Shown here: piece by piece, positions 3,001 through 9,000 of the stretch | Numbering within the stretch: position 1 is the stretch's first letter | How the letters are laid out: each line of letters starts with the position of its first letter | NCBI RefSeq assembly: GCF_055900595.2 | Contig: NZ_CM148325.1 | DNA: 64,000 bases | Direction: 5' to 3' (one strand) | Program-made: the position numbers

Positions 3001-6000
3001 TCCCCGCCTGACGGCATTGCGGGTTGACCTGCGTTTCCCGGATGTACCGGCAGCAACGGACGCAGCTGTGATATCCCGCTTCATCAATGCCCTGAAAGCC
3101 CGAATCGACGCTTACCAGAAACGTAAGCATCGGGAAGGTAAACGCGTGCATCCCACAACCCTGCATTACGTCTGGGCCCGGGAGTTTGGGGAGTGCAAAG
3201 GTAAAAAACACTATCACCTGATGCTGCTGGTTAACCGGGATACCTGGTGTCGTGCCGGTGATTACCGTGCTCCGGGATCACTGGCCGGGATGATTAAACA
3301 GGCGTGGTGCAGTGCCCTGGGAGTGGATGTCGGGTGCCATGCCACACTGGTGCATTTTCCGGCCTGGCCGGCGGTGTGGCTGGAACGCGATGATGACACT
3401 GGCTTTCAGCAGGTGCTGGAACGTGCTGACTATCTGGCGAAGGAACATACCAAAGCTCACTGCACCGGTGAGCGCAATTTTGGCTGTAGCCGGAGTTGAG
3501 CACGACTGGCGCGCCAATACCCGGCAAACCAAAAGTATGGGTTGTTGTCTGGCGGCAACGATGTATCCACTCGCCCACTGACTGTTTTTTACGTCAGTGT
3601 TCCATTGTGTGACAACCACAGTGCTGTAACAGCAACCAGCCTGCTTTACCCAAACTCCAGTCCAGATTTTAACTGAACCGCCATTCACACCCTGACCACG
3701 CTGCCCGTACCGGGACGGCTGTTGCCTGCGTGTCGTCTGGCGGCTGAGGAATATGACTATGTACGCAAAATCCTTTATCGCTCTTGATGGCAACGGACGT
3801 CTGACGGGCGCCCGTACTGCACAGGCCGCACCTTATGCTAACTACACCTGCCACTTGTGTGGCAGTGCACTCAGATACCATCCGCAATACGACACTGAAC
3901 TTCCCTGGTTTGAACACACTGACGACAGGCTGACAGAGCACGGTCAACAGTGCCCTTATGTCAGGCCGGAGCGCAGAGAAATACAGTTGATTAAACGTCT
4001 GCAGCAATTCGTACCGGATGCCTTACCCGTGGTGCGTAAAGCCAGCTGGCACTGCAGACAATGTCACCACGATTATTATGGGGAGCGGTACTGCACACAC
4101 TGCCAGACCGGAGGATTCAGTATTCCCCGGACAACTCAGGAGGAAATATGCGAATTCTGAACTGTTATATGGCGAATGACAGCAAAGGCCATTTTGTTAC
4201 GGCGAAAGAAGCAGCGAAGCACAACCGCCAGGACGTTTTGTGCTGTGTGTCCTGTGGATGCCCGTTAACACTTCAGCGGGGCAATGACGGACAACCACCG
4301 TGGTTTGAACATGACCAGATGACTGTCGCTGAGAAAATCCTGCTGCGATGCACCTGGCTTGACCCGGCAGAGAAAGAGGCCCGTCGTTTGCATCTGCAGG
4401 GTATGACGGTTCCGGATTATACGGTGAAGGTGAGAAAGTGGTTTTGTGTGATGTGTGACGAAAATTATGAGGGGGAAAAGTGCTGCCCGAGTTGTGGTAC
4501 CGGGGTATACAGCAGGGAGGGGGGGCAGGAGGGCAACTGGAAGGATAGGAACTGAGCGGTTCAGTCGCGGAAATCAGTTGCAGAGCTGTAATGATATCTC
4601 CGGGAGTGCTGCGTTGGTAGGGGCATCCCGGGATAGAGAAATTTTAGCACTTTGCCCTGAATGATTGTAGACGTCCCGAGTACTCGTACCGGTCTGAGTT
4701 ATTACAGTTAGATATTCACTTTTTCTCCCGCATACTTCACATCTGTCAACGACGGATGAAAAGTGGTTCTTCCGCAACCTGGGTGGAAGAAAATGGATGA
4801 AACTTTCTGGCGAACAAGGATCTAAGCTGTTTTAAGTTATGGGCAACGCAATGCACTCTCTTAAGACACTTCTACAGTTACCTTGCGGATGGCGATGCAG
4901 TCGACAAATTATTAGCTCTGACGGTATAACCCTCCATCTCCACGGAAAACGCAAAACAGCACAATGTCCTGAATGCTTTAAGCGTAGCGACTCTGTTCAT
5001 AGTTGTCGTCGGCGCCGGATACAGCATCTACCCTGCTCAGGGCAGACGCTATGGCTTGTATTTTCCGTCCGCCACTGGTACTGCCGTAACCCGGCTTGTT
5101 CACGTAAAATTTTTGCCGAGTCGCTTGCTCCCTTCGCCAGTTCACACCAGCAGTCTTCACAGGCGTTACAAAATTAACAACGTCAACTGGGATTAATAGC
5201 TGGAGGTGAGGCTGGAAAACGGGCTGCAACGGCAGTGGGTCTCCGTTGCAGTGCTGATACTCTTCTTCGCAGGCTTATCAATACCCCGGAGACGAAACAG
5301 TCAGGCGCGCCTCATGTCGGTATTGATGAGTGGGCGTGGCATCGGGGCCACTGCTGCGGTATGTTAATAGTCAATCCTGATACTCACCGTCCCCTCGTCC
5401 TGCTTCCCGGCCGTGATCAGCGTACGCTGGCGACCTGGTTCAGAAAATATCCGGAAATACAGGTTGTCTCGCGTGATCGCAGTGGAGTCTATGCGACAGC
5501 AGCACGTGAAGGTGCACCTCAGGCCAGACAGGTGGCCGATCGATGGCACCTGCTAAAAAATATTGGTGATGAGCCTGAACGAATGATGTACAGATATATG
5601 CCTCTGATACGTCTTGTTGTCAGAGAGTTATCACTGAAGAAATCACCTGAGCCAGAAATATCTGTGCCTGTAGCATCGCTCCGTCGTCTGGAACGCCTTA
5701 AACAGCACATCCGCAAAAAACGGCATCAGCGTTGGACAGAGGTTATGGCCCTGCATAACAAGGGATGTAGTTTCAGGGAAATATCCCGTATTACAGGCCT
5801 GTCGCGAGTGACAGTCAGTCGCTGGGTGGGTTCAGGAACATTCCCTGAAATGTCAACTAGGCCTCCAAAGCGAGGGCTTCTGGACCCATGGAGGGAGTGG
5901 TTAAAAGAGCAACGAGAATGTGGTAATTATAACTCCGGCCGGATATGGCGGGAAATGGTGGCCAGGGGGGTTACAGGCAGTGAAACCATCGTCAGGGATG

Positions 6001-9000
6001 CTGTTGCCAAATGGCATAAAGGCTGGATCCCACCGGTTACTACTGCCGCAAGACTTCCTTCAGTGTCCCGGGTAAGCCGCTGGTTGATGCCCTGGAGAAT
6101 AATCAGGGGTGAAGAAAATTATGCTTTCCGATTTATTAGTCTGATGTGTGAAAAAGAACCGGAGTTGAAAATAGCGCAGCAACTGGTACTCGAGTTCTAC
6201 CGTATTCTGAAAACCTAAAATAAATCACAGCTAAGCAGCTGGTTCACTCGGGTCCACGAAAGCGGCTCAGCAGAACTTCGGTGCGTAGCTGCGGGGATGG
6301 AAGCTGATGCTGCGGCTATATGTGAGGCAATCAGCAGTCGCTGGAGTACTGGTGTTGTCGAAGGTCATGTAAATCGCCTGAAGGTGCTGATACGCCAGAT
6401 GTATGGTCGAGCCGGACTTGAACTACTTAGGCGGAGGGTAATGAGTCCACTGGCATGAAAATCTTCACCTAGGTTGAGGAAGAGCCACTTTTGCACTGTT
6501 CGTGACAGTATGGCCTTTATGTACTCACTTTGTTACCGGTAGCTGAATCATCACTACCGTGCTGCAAATGGTGGTGAACAGCATCAATTGTGGAATGAAT
6601 GTTGCCGAAGCGACCAATGCGCCTCGTTTCCACCATCAGTGGTTGCCGGACGAGCTGCGTGTTGAAAAGGGTTTAGTCCGGATACGCTCAAGCTGCTGGA
6701 AGCAAAAGGTCAGAAAGTGGCGCTGAATGAGGCGATGGGCAGCACGCAAAGCATTATGGTTGGGTCGGATGGTGAGTTGTACGGCGCATCCGACTCGCGC
6801 TTGGTGGATGATTTAACGGCGGGGTATTAATTGACATCCCCCGGCGCAGTGTGCCGGGGGATAATGGTTTTATGCGGTCAATAATCGTCCGGGATTATCG
6901 ATACAGAGTTTTTTGAGGATCGTTTTATCGACGCCGCGCTCCGCCAGATAGGCCAGAAAAACATCTGGAACAAATCCCCAGCCATTACCGCCATTTTTAG
7001 CCCACATTTGTTTAAGGAAGACATCGTGGCTGAGAACAAGCTGATCGGCGTATCCCAACTCAATGAGATGAGCGACGGCATCGGCAGTCTCCTGCACCCC
7101 TGGCGCTATTCCCTCTTTCGGGAAGGTAATGTCTAGGCCAATCATGTCGAATTCCAGCCAGACACCCTTATCAAGCATTTTCCGCTGATACGCCACGTCT
7201 TTTCCTGACGGATCCGAGTGTGCGAGAGAGACTTTATTTGGCGAGACGCCCATTTCACCTAACACAATGTCGAGTACTTCATCACCGCGACGAAGCCAGC
7301 CCGGCATGTGAATATTCATCGCCACATGAGGATTGTTAATCTGTGCCAGCGAGGCAGCCCGCAAGCTGTTATGCTCGGCTTCGGTAAATGTCGGTGAGAC
7401 ACCTATTTCACCGATCATTCCGGCACGAATATCCGTATCGCCAATCCCTTGATTCAATTCTTTATCAATCGTTGCCGCCAGTTCATCAACCGTTTTATGA
7501 ATTCTCTGGCTTTCAAATTTTTCCAAGTAGGGACCGGAGGAAGCAACAATATTCAGACCTGTTTTTAATGCGACTTCTCGTAATGCCTGCGCATCTCGTC
7601 CGATAGACTCAGACCCTGTGGCATCAACAATGGTGCGACCACCGAGCGAGATAAAGTTATTAATTTCGAAGATCACATCTTCAATAGGTTTGCGGTCCAT
7701 ATTATCAGCGCAGCAATAAGGTGATCTTACCCAGCAATAGTGGACACGCGGCTAAGTGAGTAAACTCTCAGTCAGAGGTGACTCACATGACAAAAACAGT
7801 ATCAACCAGTAAAAAACCCCGTAAACAGCATTCGCCTGAATTTCGCAGTGAAGCCCTGAAGCTTGCTGAACGCATCGGTGTTACTGCCGCAGCCCGTGAA
7901 CTCAGCCTGTATGAATCACAGCTCTACAACTGGCGCAGTAAACAGCAAAATCAGCAGACGTCTTCTGAACGTGAACTGGAGATGTCTACCGAGATTGCAC
8001 GTCTCAAACGCCAGCTGGCAGAACGGGATGAAGAGCTGGCTATCCTCCAAAAGGCCGCGACATACTTCGCGAAGCGCCTGAAATGAAGTATGTCTTTATT
8101 GAAAAACATCAGGCTGAGTTCAGCATCAAAGCAATGTGCCGCGTGCTCCGGGTGGCCCGCAGCGGCTGGTATACGTGGTGTCAGCGGCGGACAAGGATAA
8201 GCACGCGTCAGCAGTTCCGCCAACACTGCGACAGCGTTGTCCTCGCGGCTTTTACCCGGTCAAAACAGCGTTACGGTGCCCCACGCCTGACGGATGAACT
8301 GCGTGCTCAGGGTTACCCCTTTAACGTAAAAACCGTGGCGGCAAGCCTGCGCCGTCAGGGACTGAGGGCAAAGGCCTCCCGGAAGTTCAGCCCGGTCAGC
8401 TACCGCGCACACGGCCTGCCTGTGTCAGAAAATCTGTTGGAGCAGGATTTTTACGCCAGTGGCCCGAACCAGAAGTGGGCAGGAGACATCACGTACTTAC
8501 GTACAGATGAAGGCTGGCTGTATCTGGCAGTGGTCATTGACCTGTGGTCACGTGCCGTTATTGGCTGGTCAATGTCGCCACGCATGACGGCGCAACTGGC
8601 CTGCGATGCCCTGCAGATGGCGCTGTGGCGGCGTAAGAGGCCCCGGAACGTTATCGTTCACACGGACCGTGGAGGCCAGTACTGTTCAGCAGATTATCAG
8701 GCGCAACTGAAGCGGCATAATCTGCGTGGAAAGCTTCTTTCATTCGCTGAAAGTGGAATGTATCCATGGAGAACACTTTATCAGCCGGGAAATAATGCGG
8801 GCAACGGTGTTTAATTATATCGAATGTGATTACAATCGGTGGCGGCGGCACAGTTGGTGTGGCGGCCTCAGTCCGGAACAATTTGAAAACCAGAATCTCG
8901 CTTAGGCCTGTGTCCATATTACGTGGGTAGGATCACCGCACTCTTGACATAAGAGTGCGGTCCGTGGAAAACGGAGTTGAAAAAATGGTGTCTGAAAGAA

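What the first reader, a model, noticed from the sequence alone, without database searches (positions are those of the whole stretch)
4743..6512. Decayed ISL3-family insertion sequence abutting a ggt fragment
The ISL3-type transposase frame carries an in-frame TAA (5178-5180) in the N-terminal zf/HTH region and a frameshift before the C-terminal conserved ...VEGHVNRLK...YGRAG... segment. Imperfect inverted repeats sharing the core AAAAGTGG(T/C)TCTTCC sit at 4759-4773 and 6478-6492. The ggt-homologous sequence begins about 20 bp beyond the right repeat, suggesting the IS inserted into, or recombined next to, a ggt paralog.
Basis: partly seen in the sequence, partly recalled or inferred. Interest (0 to 1): 0.3.

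Follow-up and report, generated by a model that had tools for sequence, protein, structure and literature searches.

The report
Dead ISEc38 nested in IS100 ends
This is a long-dead, already-annotated copy of the insertion sequence ISEc38 in the E. coli chromosome. Its apparent long end-repeats are really stubs of a second insertion sequence, IS100, into whose ends this kind of element inserts almost every time.

Summary
Window 4839-6458 is one 540-codon ISL3-family transposase frame. It is 95% identical in DNA to active ISEc38 and has no indels. Two in-frame TAA codons kill it: L113* at 5175-5177 and Q460* at 6216-6218. There is no frameshift.

The same pseudogene, with the same junctions, sits at this locus in 2779 of 5426 complete E. 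coli genomes. RefSeq already annotates it. Q460* is shared by all lineages I examined, and each lineage carries further lesions of its own.

The true ISL3 element is 1722 bp (4765 GGTTCTTCC ... GGAAGAGCC 6486). The 21 bp outside each end are terminal stubs of IS100, an IS21-family element: 21/21 matches on the left and 19/21 on the right.

No target duplication survives. The ggt fragment (about 6532-6830) starts 24 bp beyond the IS100 stub, so the ISL3 element did not insert into ggt.

Side result: 68 of 71 distinct ISEc38-family end flanks are IS100/ISSen3 ends. The transposase carries an IstA-like double helix-turn-helix module. Distant relatives across phyla sit 20-21 bp inside IS21-type TGT termini. 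I found no publication describing this.

The parts
4744..4764 (+). IS100 (IS21 family) terminal 21-mer, TGTCAACGACGGATGAAAAGT. It is the reverse complement of the IS100 right end, with the terminus facing outward.
   Evidence: 21/21 identical to the right end of the intact IS100 in L001/L011. It is the only match in the window, with 0 expected by chance.
4765..6486 (+). ISEc38-like ISL3 core, 1722 bp, from GGTTCTTCC to GGAAGAGCC. This is the real transposable unit.
   Evidence: The 73%-identical Klebsiella relative aligns over exactly 1-1722. Cores with 8-bp duplications sit in intact IS100 ends. Assemblies contain contigs of 1722 and 1727 nt.
4765..4785 (+). Left inverted repeat of the ISL3 core.
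   Evidence: 18/21 complementary to 6466-6486.
6466..6486 (-). Right inverted repeat of the ISL3 core.
4839..6458 (+). Transposase pseudogene: 540 codons in one frame with two internal TAA codons.
   Evidence: RefSeq annotates it as 'ISL3 family transposase, internal stop'. There are 88 nt differences and no indels against intact ISEc38.
4956..5090 (+). Zn-ribbon (PF14690), codons 40-84.
5175..5177 (+). Nonsense codon 113 (TTA to TAA, L113*). Specific to this lineage.
   Evidence: TTA in L005-L008 and in the intact copies.
5325..5327 (+). Catalytic D163 (intact).
   Evidence: Invariant column in alignment A1; codon read.
5538..5540 (+). Catalytic D234 (intact).
5739..6032 (+). IstA-like tandem helix-turn-helix module (codons 301-398), inserted between the second D and the E of the catalytic triad.
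   Evidence: NCBIfam IS21 transposase positions 2-104, E 1.6e-16. 34% identity to IS100 IstA residues 9-98, E 3e-11. The only PDB hit is IS5376 IstA residues 10-107, E 1.6e-10.
6216..6218 (+). Nonsense codon 460 (CAA to TAA, Q460*). Ancestral lesion shared by all chromosomal lineages examined.
6360..6362 (+). Catalytic E508 (intact), within VEGHVNRLK.
6487..6507 (-). IS100-left-end-like terminal 21-mer (TGTCACGAACAGTGCAAAAGT on the minus strand), with the terminus facing outward.
   Evidence: 19/21 identical to the IS100 left end. It is the only match in the window, with 0 expected by chance.
6508..6531 (.). Unassigned spacer of about 24 bp between the IS100-type terminus and the ggt homology.
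   Evidence: It does not align to K-12 ggt. It is identical in all lineages.
6532..6830 (+). 3' fragment of a ggt homolog (roughly the last 100 codons), itself decayed: a 12-nt deletion between GGTAGC repeats, TGA at 6544-6546, and a 1-nt deletion at 6664/6665.
   Evidence: 92.5% identical to E. coli's own ggt over 294/295 nt, ending at the stop codon. RefSeq annotates it as a pseudogene.

Best explanation
The feature is a dead, anciently fixed copy of an ISEc38-family (ISL3) insertion sequence. It lies in the island remnant next to cobUST in the E. coli chromosome.

The 1722-bp ISL3 core (4765-6486) sits between two outward-facing 21-bp terminal stubs of IS100, an IS21-family element. This is the footprint of an IS100 copy, or of two copies, whose ends were hit by ISEc38 and whose body was then lost.

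Shown:
- ISEc38-family cores transpose on their own and make 8-bp duplications.
- They land almost exclusively in the terminal repeats of IS100/ISSen3, mostly 21|22 bp from the terminus, in the AT-rich stretch just before the repeated GATCCAC box.
- Many copies end up as [IS21 end stub]-core-[IS21 end stub], still bracketed by the 5-bp duplication typical of IS100.

Inferred for this copy:
1. IS100 inserted.
2. ISEc38 inserted into its end or ends.
3. The IS100 body was lost by recombination between two ISEc38 copies, or by intramolecular transposition.
4. A flank was rearranged, since no 5-bp duplication survives.
5. The transposase gene acquired Q460* before the E. coli lineages carrying it diverged.
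6. L113* arose later, in this lineage only.

The element now does nothing. The adjacent ggt piece is an independent gene fragment, not the ISL3 target.
For: Identity and decay:
- Family and domains.
- 95% DNA identity, same length and no indels against intact ISEc38 copies.
- Two nonsense codons in one frame.
- Conserved residues changed (T175M, K518I, Y173C, N504T).
- Q460* is shared by L005-L008. Each of those lineages has a different extra lesion: stops at codons 88, 18 or 66, a 2-bp insertion, a 1-bp deletion.
- dN/dS among chromosomal copies is 0.5-0.7.
- 2779 of 5426 genomes carry it with the same flanks. RefSeq annotates it as a pseudogene.

IS100 stubs:
-.

The core moves as its own unit with 8-bp duplications inside intact IS100 ends:
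- ACTTTTCA in the right end, within a composite bracketed by IS100's own ATTGT (L011).
- GCAATAGT in the left end (L107).

Generality:
- 68 of 71 distinct flanks are IS100-type ends. The cuts fall at 21, 33, 46 or 55 bp from the terminus.
- Relatives in Salmonella, Enterobacter, Citrobacter and Klebsiella carry ISSen3 ends.
- Outer 4-6-bp duplications occur in 10 units.
Against: - This copy has neither the 8-bp inner nor the 5-bp outer duplication, so its own insertion history is reconstructed by analogy.
- No empty site or IS100-occupied precursor of this locus exists in 5426 genomes.
- The right stub differs from IS100 at 2 of 21 positions.
- The ISfinder reference entry for ISEc38 could not be consulted. 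If ISfinder defines the element as 1764 bp, the naming of the ends would differ.
- Some metagenome contigs used for the flank statistics may be chimeric or redundant.
Confidence: 0.85

Rival explanations
1. One reading: a simple ISL3 element bounded by about 15-bp inverted repeats that inserted into, and truncated, a ggt paralog, and then decayed by one stop codon and one frameshift.
For: An ISL3 frame, inverted repeats and a neighbouring ggt fragment are all present.
Against: - There is no frameshift.
- The flanks of the core are IS100 ends, not ggt.
- ggt homology begins 45 bp from the core end.
- There is no 8-bp duplication.
Confidence: 0.05
2. The 1764-bp unit (4744-6507) is itself the genuine insertion sequence. 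Its own 43-bp inverted repeats merely resemble IS100 ends, and it makes 5-bp duplications.
For: - Similarity between copies in unrelated contexts usually ends exactly at TGTCA / TGACA.
- Ten units carry outer 4-6-bp duplications.
- The stubs of distant relatives have diverged about as much as the cores.
Against: - Thirteen exact inner 8-bp duplications flank the core alone, including cores inside otherwise intact IS100 copies and inside an IS256-type transposase gene.
- Stub length varies (21, 33, 46 or 55 bp), and either IS100 end type can lie on either side.
- The diverged stubs match a real, separate element, ISSen3, which has its own istA/istB.
Confidence: 0.07
3. The stub-core-stub unit reached this and other sites by being mobilised in trans by the IS100 IstA/IstB transposase acting on the retained IS100 termini. 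It did not form in place.
For: - Outer 5-bp duplications match those of IS100 (TTTGT, ATTGT) at L014, L015, L016, L140, L201 and L203.
- An intact IS100 lies about 5 kb upstream in the same island.
- TSD-positive units always pair one left-type stub with one right-type stub.
Against: - The 21-bp stubs lack the GATCCAC box of the IstA-binding repeat (repeat architecture from PMC10122671).
- The window copy has no outer duplication.
- In-place replacement of an IS100 body explains the same data.
Confidence: 0.15
4. The conserved 540-codon frame is a domesticated or still-expressed gene (for example by stop-codon read-through), maintained by selection.
For: The frame length is perfectly preserved in this lineage, and the locus is present in half of all E. 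coli genomes.
Against: - Different lineages carry independent stops and frameshifts.
- Invariant residues are substituted.
- dN/dS is relaxed.
Confidence: 0.02

Closest known systems
ISEc38 (ISL3 family, Escherichia coli; named in ISfinder and used by NCBI PGAP)
   Same: - 95% DNA identity over the whole 1722-bp core.
- The same 1620-nt transposase frame.
- The same termini, GGYTCTTCC.
- The same IS100-type flanks as most plasmid copies.
   Different: - The transposase is dead (L113*, Q460*, several conserved-site substitutions).
- It is fixed at one chromosomal locus.
- It is 5% diverged from the active plasmid copies.
IS100 / ISSen3 (IS21 family)
   Same: - The outermost 21 bp on both sides are IS100 termini (21/21 and 19/21).
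- They are oriented as the two ends of one IS100 would be.
- Related units keep IS100-like 5-bp duplications.
   Different: - There is no istA or istB. The whole interior beyond position 21 is replaced by the ISL3 core.
- There is no 5-bp duplication here.
IS4321 / IS5075 (IS110/IS1111 group), which insert at a fixed position in the 38-bp terminal repeats of Tn21-family transposons (recalled from the literature, not tested here)
   Same: One insertion sequence uses the terminal repeats of another mobile element as its preferred, position-specific target.
   Different: - The transposase chemistry and family differ (DEDD versus ISL3 DDE).
- Here the targeting element carries a homolog of the victim's own end-binding module.
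- Here the victim's body is often replaced.
IstA N-terminal HTH-1/HTH-2 module of IS21-family transposases (IS5376 IstA, PDB 8B4H/8Q4D; PMC10122671)
   Same: Codons 301-398 align over the whole tandem-HTH module that reads the two conserved boxes of each terminal repeat.
   Different: - In IstA the module is N-terminal. Here it is inserted inside an ISL3 catalytic domain, between D234 and E508.
- Identity is only about 34%.
- DNA binding by this module is untested.

Membership tests
ISL3 family insertion sequence | Transposase with the DDE_Tnp_ISL3 catalytic domain | tested here: met
   PF01610 gives E 1.7e-15 plus a C-terminal piece on the window fragments. The intact 95% relative scores 374 bits on NCBIfam NF033550 against a cut-off of 180. 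D163, D234 and E508 are present.
ISL3 family insertion sequence | N-terminal ISL3-type zinc ribbon | tested here: met
   PF14690 scores 33.7 bits against a cut-off of 25.5, residues 40-84.
ISL3 family insertion sequence | Terminal inverted repeats starting GGCTCTT-like (family consensus recalled from ISfinder) | tested here: met
   GGTTCTTCC at 4765 and GGCTCTTCC on the complement ending at 6486, 18/21 complementary. Distant relatives show the same GG(Y)TCT termini.
ISL3 family insertion sequence | 8-bp target-site duplication | tested here: not met
   This copy has TGAAAAGT on the left and ACTTTTGC on the right, which are inverted rather than direct. Other copies do meet it: 13 exact 8-bp duplications.
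ISL3 family insertion sequence | Uninterrupted transposase gene (an active element) | tested here: not met
   TAA at 5175-5177 and at 6216-6218.
ISEc38 (named element) | High full-length DNA identity to reference ISEc38 | tested here: inconclusive
   It is 95% identical to copies that PGAP labels 'ISL3-like element ISEc38 family', with 497 of 540 codons identical. The ISfinder reference sequence and its stated ends could not be consulted.
IS100 / IS21 family (for 4744-4764 and 6487-6507) | Terminal sequence of the element, 5'-TGT...ACA-3' | tested here: met
   21/21 and 19/21 identity to the ends of an intact 1954-bp IS100.
IS100 / IS21 family (for 4744-4764 and 6487-6507) | istA and istB genes between the ends | tested here: not met
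   The interior is the ISL3 core. Only an IstA-like HTH module is embedded in the ISL3 transposase.
IS100 / IS21 family (for 4744-4764 and 6487-6507) | Short (5-bp for IS100) target duplication outside the ends | tested here: not met
   The window has ACATC versus GTATG. Related units do meet it: L014, L015, L016, L138, L140, L146, L150, L201, L203.
Gamma-glutamyltransferase gene (6532-6830) | Sequence homology to ggt | tested here: met
   PF01019 profile positions 428-465. 92.5% nucleotide identity to the E. coli ggt 3' end.
Gamma-glutamyltransferase gene (6532-6830) | Complete open reading frame | tested here: not met
   Only about the last 100 codons remain, with a TGA, a 1-nt deletion and a 12-nt deletion. 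RefSeq marks it as a pseudogene.

The most novel reading that the evidence does not exclude
ISEc38 belongs to a very large, cross-phylum 'long-form' ISL3 subfamily whose members behave as dedicated parasites of IS21-family insertion sequences.

Proposed mechanism:
- The transposase carries a homolog of the IstA tandem-HTH module between the second D and the E of its catalytic triad. In IstA this module reads IS21 terminal repeats.
- The module plausibly docks the enzyme on those repeats.
- The 8-bp staggered cut then falls in the AT-rich spacer of a repeat, typically 21|22 bp from the terminus.
- The IS21 body is often subsequently replaced, leaving stub-core-stub units.

The association itself is shown here:
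- 68 of 71 enteric flanks are IS100-type ends.
- The 'TGT' start offset peaks at 20-21 bp in 25 of 92 flanks of 29-40%-identical relatives from at least seven phyla, against about 3 expected.
- istA/istB genes lie directly adjacent to the core in several of those loci.

The role of the module is inferred. I found no description of this in the searchable literature.
Probability: 0.45. Interest if true: 0.65.

Novelty: already known. Interest (0 to 1): 0.4.

Why it matters
As given, the finding is routine. It is a RefSeq-annotated ISL3 transposase pseudogene next to a ggt pseudogene, useful mainly as a stable phylogenetic marker of this E. coli island.

The corrected anatomy is more informative. 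It shows that an apparent long terminal repeat of one insertion sequence can be the remains of another. That matters for IS annotation, for calling element ends, and for interpreting 'missing' target duplications.

If the wider pattern holds, it describes IS-on-IS parasitism:
- An ISL3 lineage borrowed the end-recognition module of IS21 transposases.
- It uses IS21 ends as safe landing pads and erases its host element in the process.
- This would give a concrete, testable example of how a transposase gains target specificity by domain capture.
- It would also explain part of the turnover of IS100-type elements on virulence and resistance plasmids.

Tried and rejected
- **8-bp and 5-bp duplications at the window copy.** None found.
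- **Empty-site or precursor search.** I joined the two flanks and searched 5426 E. coli genomes. No genome has them adjacent.
- **Degenerate end-pattern scan of genome contigs.** It returned nothing. I could not tell whether this is a real absence or a limit of degenerate patterns. A later protein-guided scan did find E. albertii and others.
- **Contexts for distant relatives P0125 and P0135.** Neither was on record. P0122 was found only on a 1954-nt contig. That contig still showed a 21-nt TGTCA-type stub on one side.
- **Other IS21-family ends as the source of the stubs.** ISEc12 and ISSso4 ends do not match. ISSen3 does match for the Salmonella/Klebsiella relatives.
- **Literature.** ISEc38 appears only in MobileElementFinder lists. 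Searches combining ISL3 with IS100 or IS21 and repeats or targets found nothing relevant.
- **Domestication or read-through of the frame.** Rejected because of lineage-specific frameshifts.
- **The 24-bp spacer as diverged ggt.** Rejected, since its alignment to K-12 ggt is at chance level.
- **Not done.** A control set of short-form ISL3 elements lacking the HTH module (collection scans were exhausted) and structure prediction.

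
Full report
**Context**

The window is E. coli chromosome. It is 100% identical to strain M160133 over the finding. The element lies in an island remnant with this gene order:
- inovirus-Gp2/YagK-type and zinc-ribbon genes, with an intact IS100 further upstream, just outside the window
- this element
- a ggt fragment
- a phosphotriesterase-family gene cut by an IS3-family element
- cobUST-ldtA-asnV-nac-cbl

RefSeq annotates 4839-6458 as 'ISL3 family transposase, internal stop'. It annotates the following piece as a frameshifted, N-terminally truncated gamma-glutamyltransferase.

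**Checking the observation**

The three ORFs at 4839-5177, 5235-6218 and 6297-6458 hit the ISL3 zinc ribbon and the N- and C-terminal parts of DDE_Tnp_ISL3. All three are in one reading frame.

Translating 4839-6458 gives 540 codons with stops only at codon 113 (TAA, 5175-5177), codon 460 (TAA, 6216-6218) and the natural end.

The repeats at 4759-4773 and 6478-6492 are exactly as described. They sit inside a 43-nt, 77% inverted repeat at 4743-4785 / 6466-6508.

**Identity and decay**

- The region matches 3392 of 5426 complete E. coli genomes. In 2779 of them the match runs through both flanks, so it is the same locus.
- Copies on plasmids and in other chromosomal sites are 94-95% identical. 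They carry an intact 1620-nt gene that PGAP names 'ISL3-like element ISEc38 family transposase'.
- Against these the window copy has 88 substitutions and no indels.
- Codon 113 is TTA and codon 460 is CAA in intact copies.
- Four other E. coli lineages at the same locus all share TAA at codon 460. Each has its own further damage: stops at codons 88, 18 or 66, a 2-bp insertion, a 1-bp deletion.
- Two residues invariant in the subfamily (T175, K518) and two nearly invariant ones (Y173, N504) are substituted.
- dN/dS among the chromosomal copies is 0.5-0.7. Against active copies it is about 0.3-0.4.

This is an old, vertically inherited pseudogene decaying neutrally.

**True ends**

Aligned with copies in unrelated contexts, similarity stops at 4744 (TGTCA...) and 6507 (...TGACA). 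Comparing more copies showed that the outer 21 bp come in two versions that can sit on either side. Reading the IS100 copies next door explained this:
- TGTCACGAACGGTGCAATAGT is the IS100 left terminus.
- TGTCAACGACGGATGAAAAGT is the reverse complement of the IS100 right terminus.

In the window, 4744-4764 matches the right-end 21-mer 21/21. Positions 6487-6507 match the left-end 21-mer 19/21. Each is unique in the window, with none expected by chance.

The ISL3 element proper is therefore 4765-6486, or 1722 bp, with the family-typical GGYTCTTCC termini. Three results support this:
- A 73%-identical Klebsiella relative aligns over exactly 1-1722.
- Repeat-collapsed contigs of 1722 and 1727 nt occur in assemblies.
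- Some cores inserted alone. On an E. albertii plasmid, a complete IS100 carries the core in its right end with the 8-bp duplication ACTTTTCA, and the composite is bracketed by IS100's own 5-bp duplication ATTGT. In metagenome contigs, a core sits in an IS100 left end with the duplication GCAATAGT.

**The ggt fragment**

blastn aligns 6537-6830 to E. coli's own ggt 3' end at 92.5% identity, 294 versus 295 nt, ending at the stop codon.

Allowing a 12-nt deletion between two GGTAGC repeats extends homology to about 6532. There is also a TGA at 6544-6546 and a 1-nt deletion at 6664/6665.

The roughly 24 bp between the IS100-type terminus and ggt homology align to nothing. They are identical in all lineages.

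The ISL3 core therefore did not insert into ggt. What truncated ggt is unknown. An IS100-associated event is plausible but not shown. No genome has the two outer flanks adjacent.

**How general is the IS100 association**

A metagenome scan with a conserved 29-mer gave 120 loci. Together with plasmid and chromosome copies, these yielded 71 distinct flanks of ISEc38-family core ends. Of those, 68 are IS100-type end sequence abutting the core:
- Most are cut at 21|22 bp from the IS100 terminus. A few are indel variants of that cut.
- Three are cut at 55|56.
- Two are cut at 33|34.
- One is cut at 46|47.
- A few run into the IS100 interior, as expected for simple insertions.

The sites at 21|22 and 46|47 (left end) and at 21|22 and 55|56 (right end) all lie just terminus-side of the repeated GATCCA(C/G) box. 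This puts them in the AT-rich stretch between the CAACG(N)CGG-like box and the GATCCAC box of each terminal repeat.

Relatives at 82-86% protein identity from Salmonella, Enterobacter, Citrobacter and a JGI metagenome carry analogous stubs, as does the Klebsiella plasmid copy. These stubs match the ends of ISSen3, a real IS100 relative with istA/istB.

Units with one left-type and one right-type stub often keep a 4-6-bp direct repeat outside the stubs. Examples are GTAAT, ACAAC, AGTAC, GTTGA, GTTTC and GCTCC. This is the duplication length IS100 itself makes (TTTGT, ATTGT).

The simplest reading is an IS100/ISSen3 copy whose body was replaced by the ISL3 core. Mobilisation of the unit by IstAB cannot be excluded.

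The window copy has one right-type and one left-type stub but no outer duplication (ACATC versus GTATG). At least one flank was rearranged later, or the stubs come from two IS100 copies.

**The transposase module**

The intact protein spans 505 residues against 368 positions of the NCBIfam ISL3 model. Residues 303-398 hit the N-terminus of the IS21-family transposase model (E 1.6e-16). Further evidence:
- They align to IS100 IstA residues 9-98 at 34% identity.
- The only PDB relative of the whole protein is IS5376 IstA residues 10-107 (E 1.6e-10).
- In IstA these residues form HTH-1 and HTH-2. Those domains recognise the two conserved boxes of each terminal repeat, either side of an AT-rich spacer (PMC10122671).
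- Alignment of 14 diverse homologs puts the module between the invariant D234 and E508.

The architecture is not special to ISEc38:
- 2298 cluster representatives match at E <= 1e-30.
- The best 150 are almost all 520-590 residues and colinear.
- All 8 sampled members at 33-43% identity carry the IS21-like hit at the same place.

**Cross-phylum test**

A protein-guided scan of species-representative genomes returned 80 loci. They came from Proteobacteria, Actinobacteria, Chloroflexi, Planctomycetes, Acidobacteria, Cyanobacteria, Firmicutes and Bacteroidetes.

In the 46 loci with clean ISL3 repeats, I recorded the distance from the core end to the start of any 'TGT'. It peaks at 21 bp (19 flanks) and 20 bp (6 flanks) out of 92 flanks. 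Background is about one flank per offset.

Examples:
- A Phycisphaerae element has 20/21-nt TGTCA stubs and an outer 6-bp duplication.
- Two Ktedonobacter elements have outer 5-bp duplications.
- Simple insertions with inner 8-bp duplications lie 13 nt from an ...ACA terminus in Anaerolineae (next to GGTGGATC), Micromonosporaceae, Ktedonobacter and Entotheonella.
- tblastn found istA/istB genes directly adjacent to the core in Bryobacterales, Anaerolineae, Acidobacteria, Acaryochloris and others.

Exceptions exist, for example an insertion in an IS256-type transposase gene. The preference is strong, not absolute.

**Comparison and verdict**

The feature in the window is a known element (ISEc38 family) in a known, annotated, dead state. 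Its lesion list, ends and ggt scenario need the corrections above.

The behaviour resembles that of IS4321/IS5075, which target Tn21-family terminal repeats (recalled, not tested here). It differs in transposase family and in the targeting element carrying a homolog of the victim's end-binding module.

I could not find this described. I also could not consult ISfinder or TnPedia, so its novelty is uncertain. That the module mediates targeting is an inference from homology and from insertion geometry. No control with short-form ISL3 elements could be run.

Noticed in passing
window 5739-6032; L002:2496-2789; loci L146-L225: The ISEc38 transposase has an IstA-like tandem-HTH module inside its catalytic domain. 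This 'long form' is a huge cross-phylum ISL3 subfamily. Its cores sit 20-21 bp inside IS21-type TGT termini far more often than chance.
   Followed up: yes
window 6870-7700 (minus strand) and 7778-about 9000: A phosphotriesterase-family gene lacks its N-terminus because an IS3-family element, itself frameshifted, abuts it. The gene is intact (344 aa) in strain CD306 (L005) and in strain 2013C-3513 (L008). In CD306 it is followed by intact DMT-transporter and glutamine-amidotransferase genes; in L008 the DMT gene carries an internal stop.
   Followed up: partly
window 6532-6546: The ggt fragment carries a 12-nt deletion exactly between two GGTAGC direct repeats (PGGS codons lost), followed by CGG to TGA. 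This looks like a slippage deletion in an already dead fragment.
   Followed up: partly
L014 (E. coli plasmid p7_33_46A-2), locus 3001-4763: A stub-core-stub ISEc38 unit splits the istA gene of a different IS21-family element (ISEc12), with a 5-bp duplication GTAAT. This is three generations of nested insertion sequences.
   Followed up: partly
L012 (E. albertii plasmid pEA26_2), about 30650-30835: An ISSso4 (IS21 family) has inserted into and truncated an ISEc38 copy, the reverse of the usual nesting. The same plasmid carries four intact, identical ISEc38 transposase genes.
   Followed up: no
L172 and L190 (Acidobacteria MAGs): Here the ISL3 cores lie 39-42 bp inside termini of the TGCGTATTTCGG type, which resemble ISSso4-like IS21 ends. 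The preferred distance may therefore differ between IS21 subgroups, and the 'TGT at 21' count may underestimate the association.
   Followed up: no
L031, L074 and related metagenome contigs: The window's right junction (…GTGACA|GTATGGCC) is joined to different left flanks in some metagenome contigs. This is either recombination between ISEc38 copies or assembly chimeras across the repeat.
   Followed up: no
window about 24749-33428: A very large Ig-like-domain (yeeJ-type) gene is truncated by another IS3-family element, according to the RefSeq annotation of the identical strain (L010).
   Followed up: no
window 2894-4555: An inovirus-Gp2/YagK-family gene and two overlapping zinc-ribbon genes form the CP4-type island module immediately left of the element. 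The same trio recurs beside another ISEc38 copy in strain ST3 (L013).
   Followed up: no
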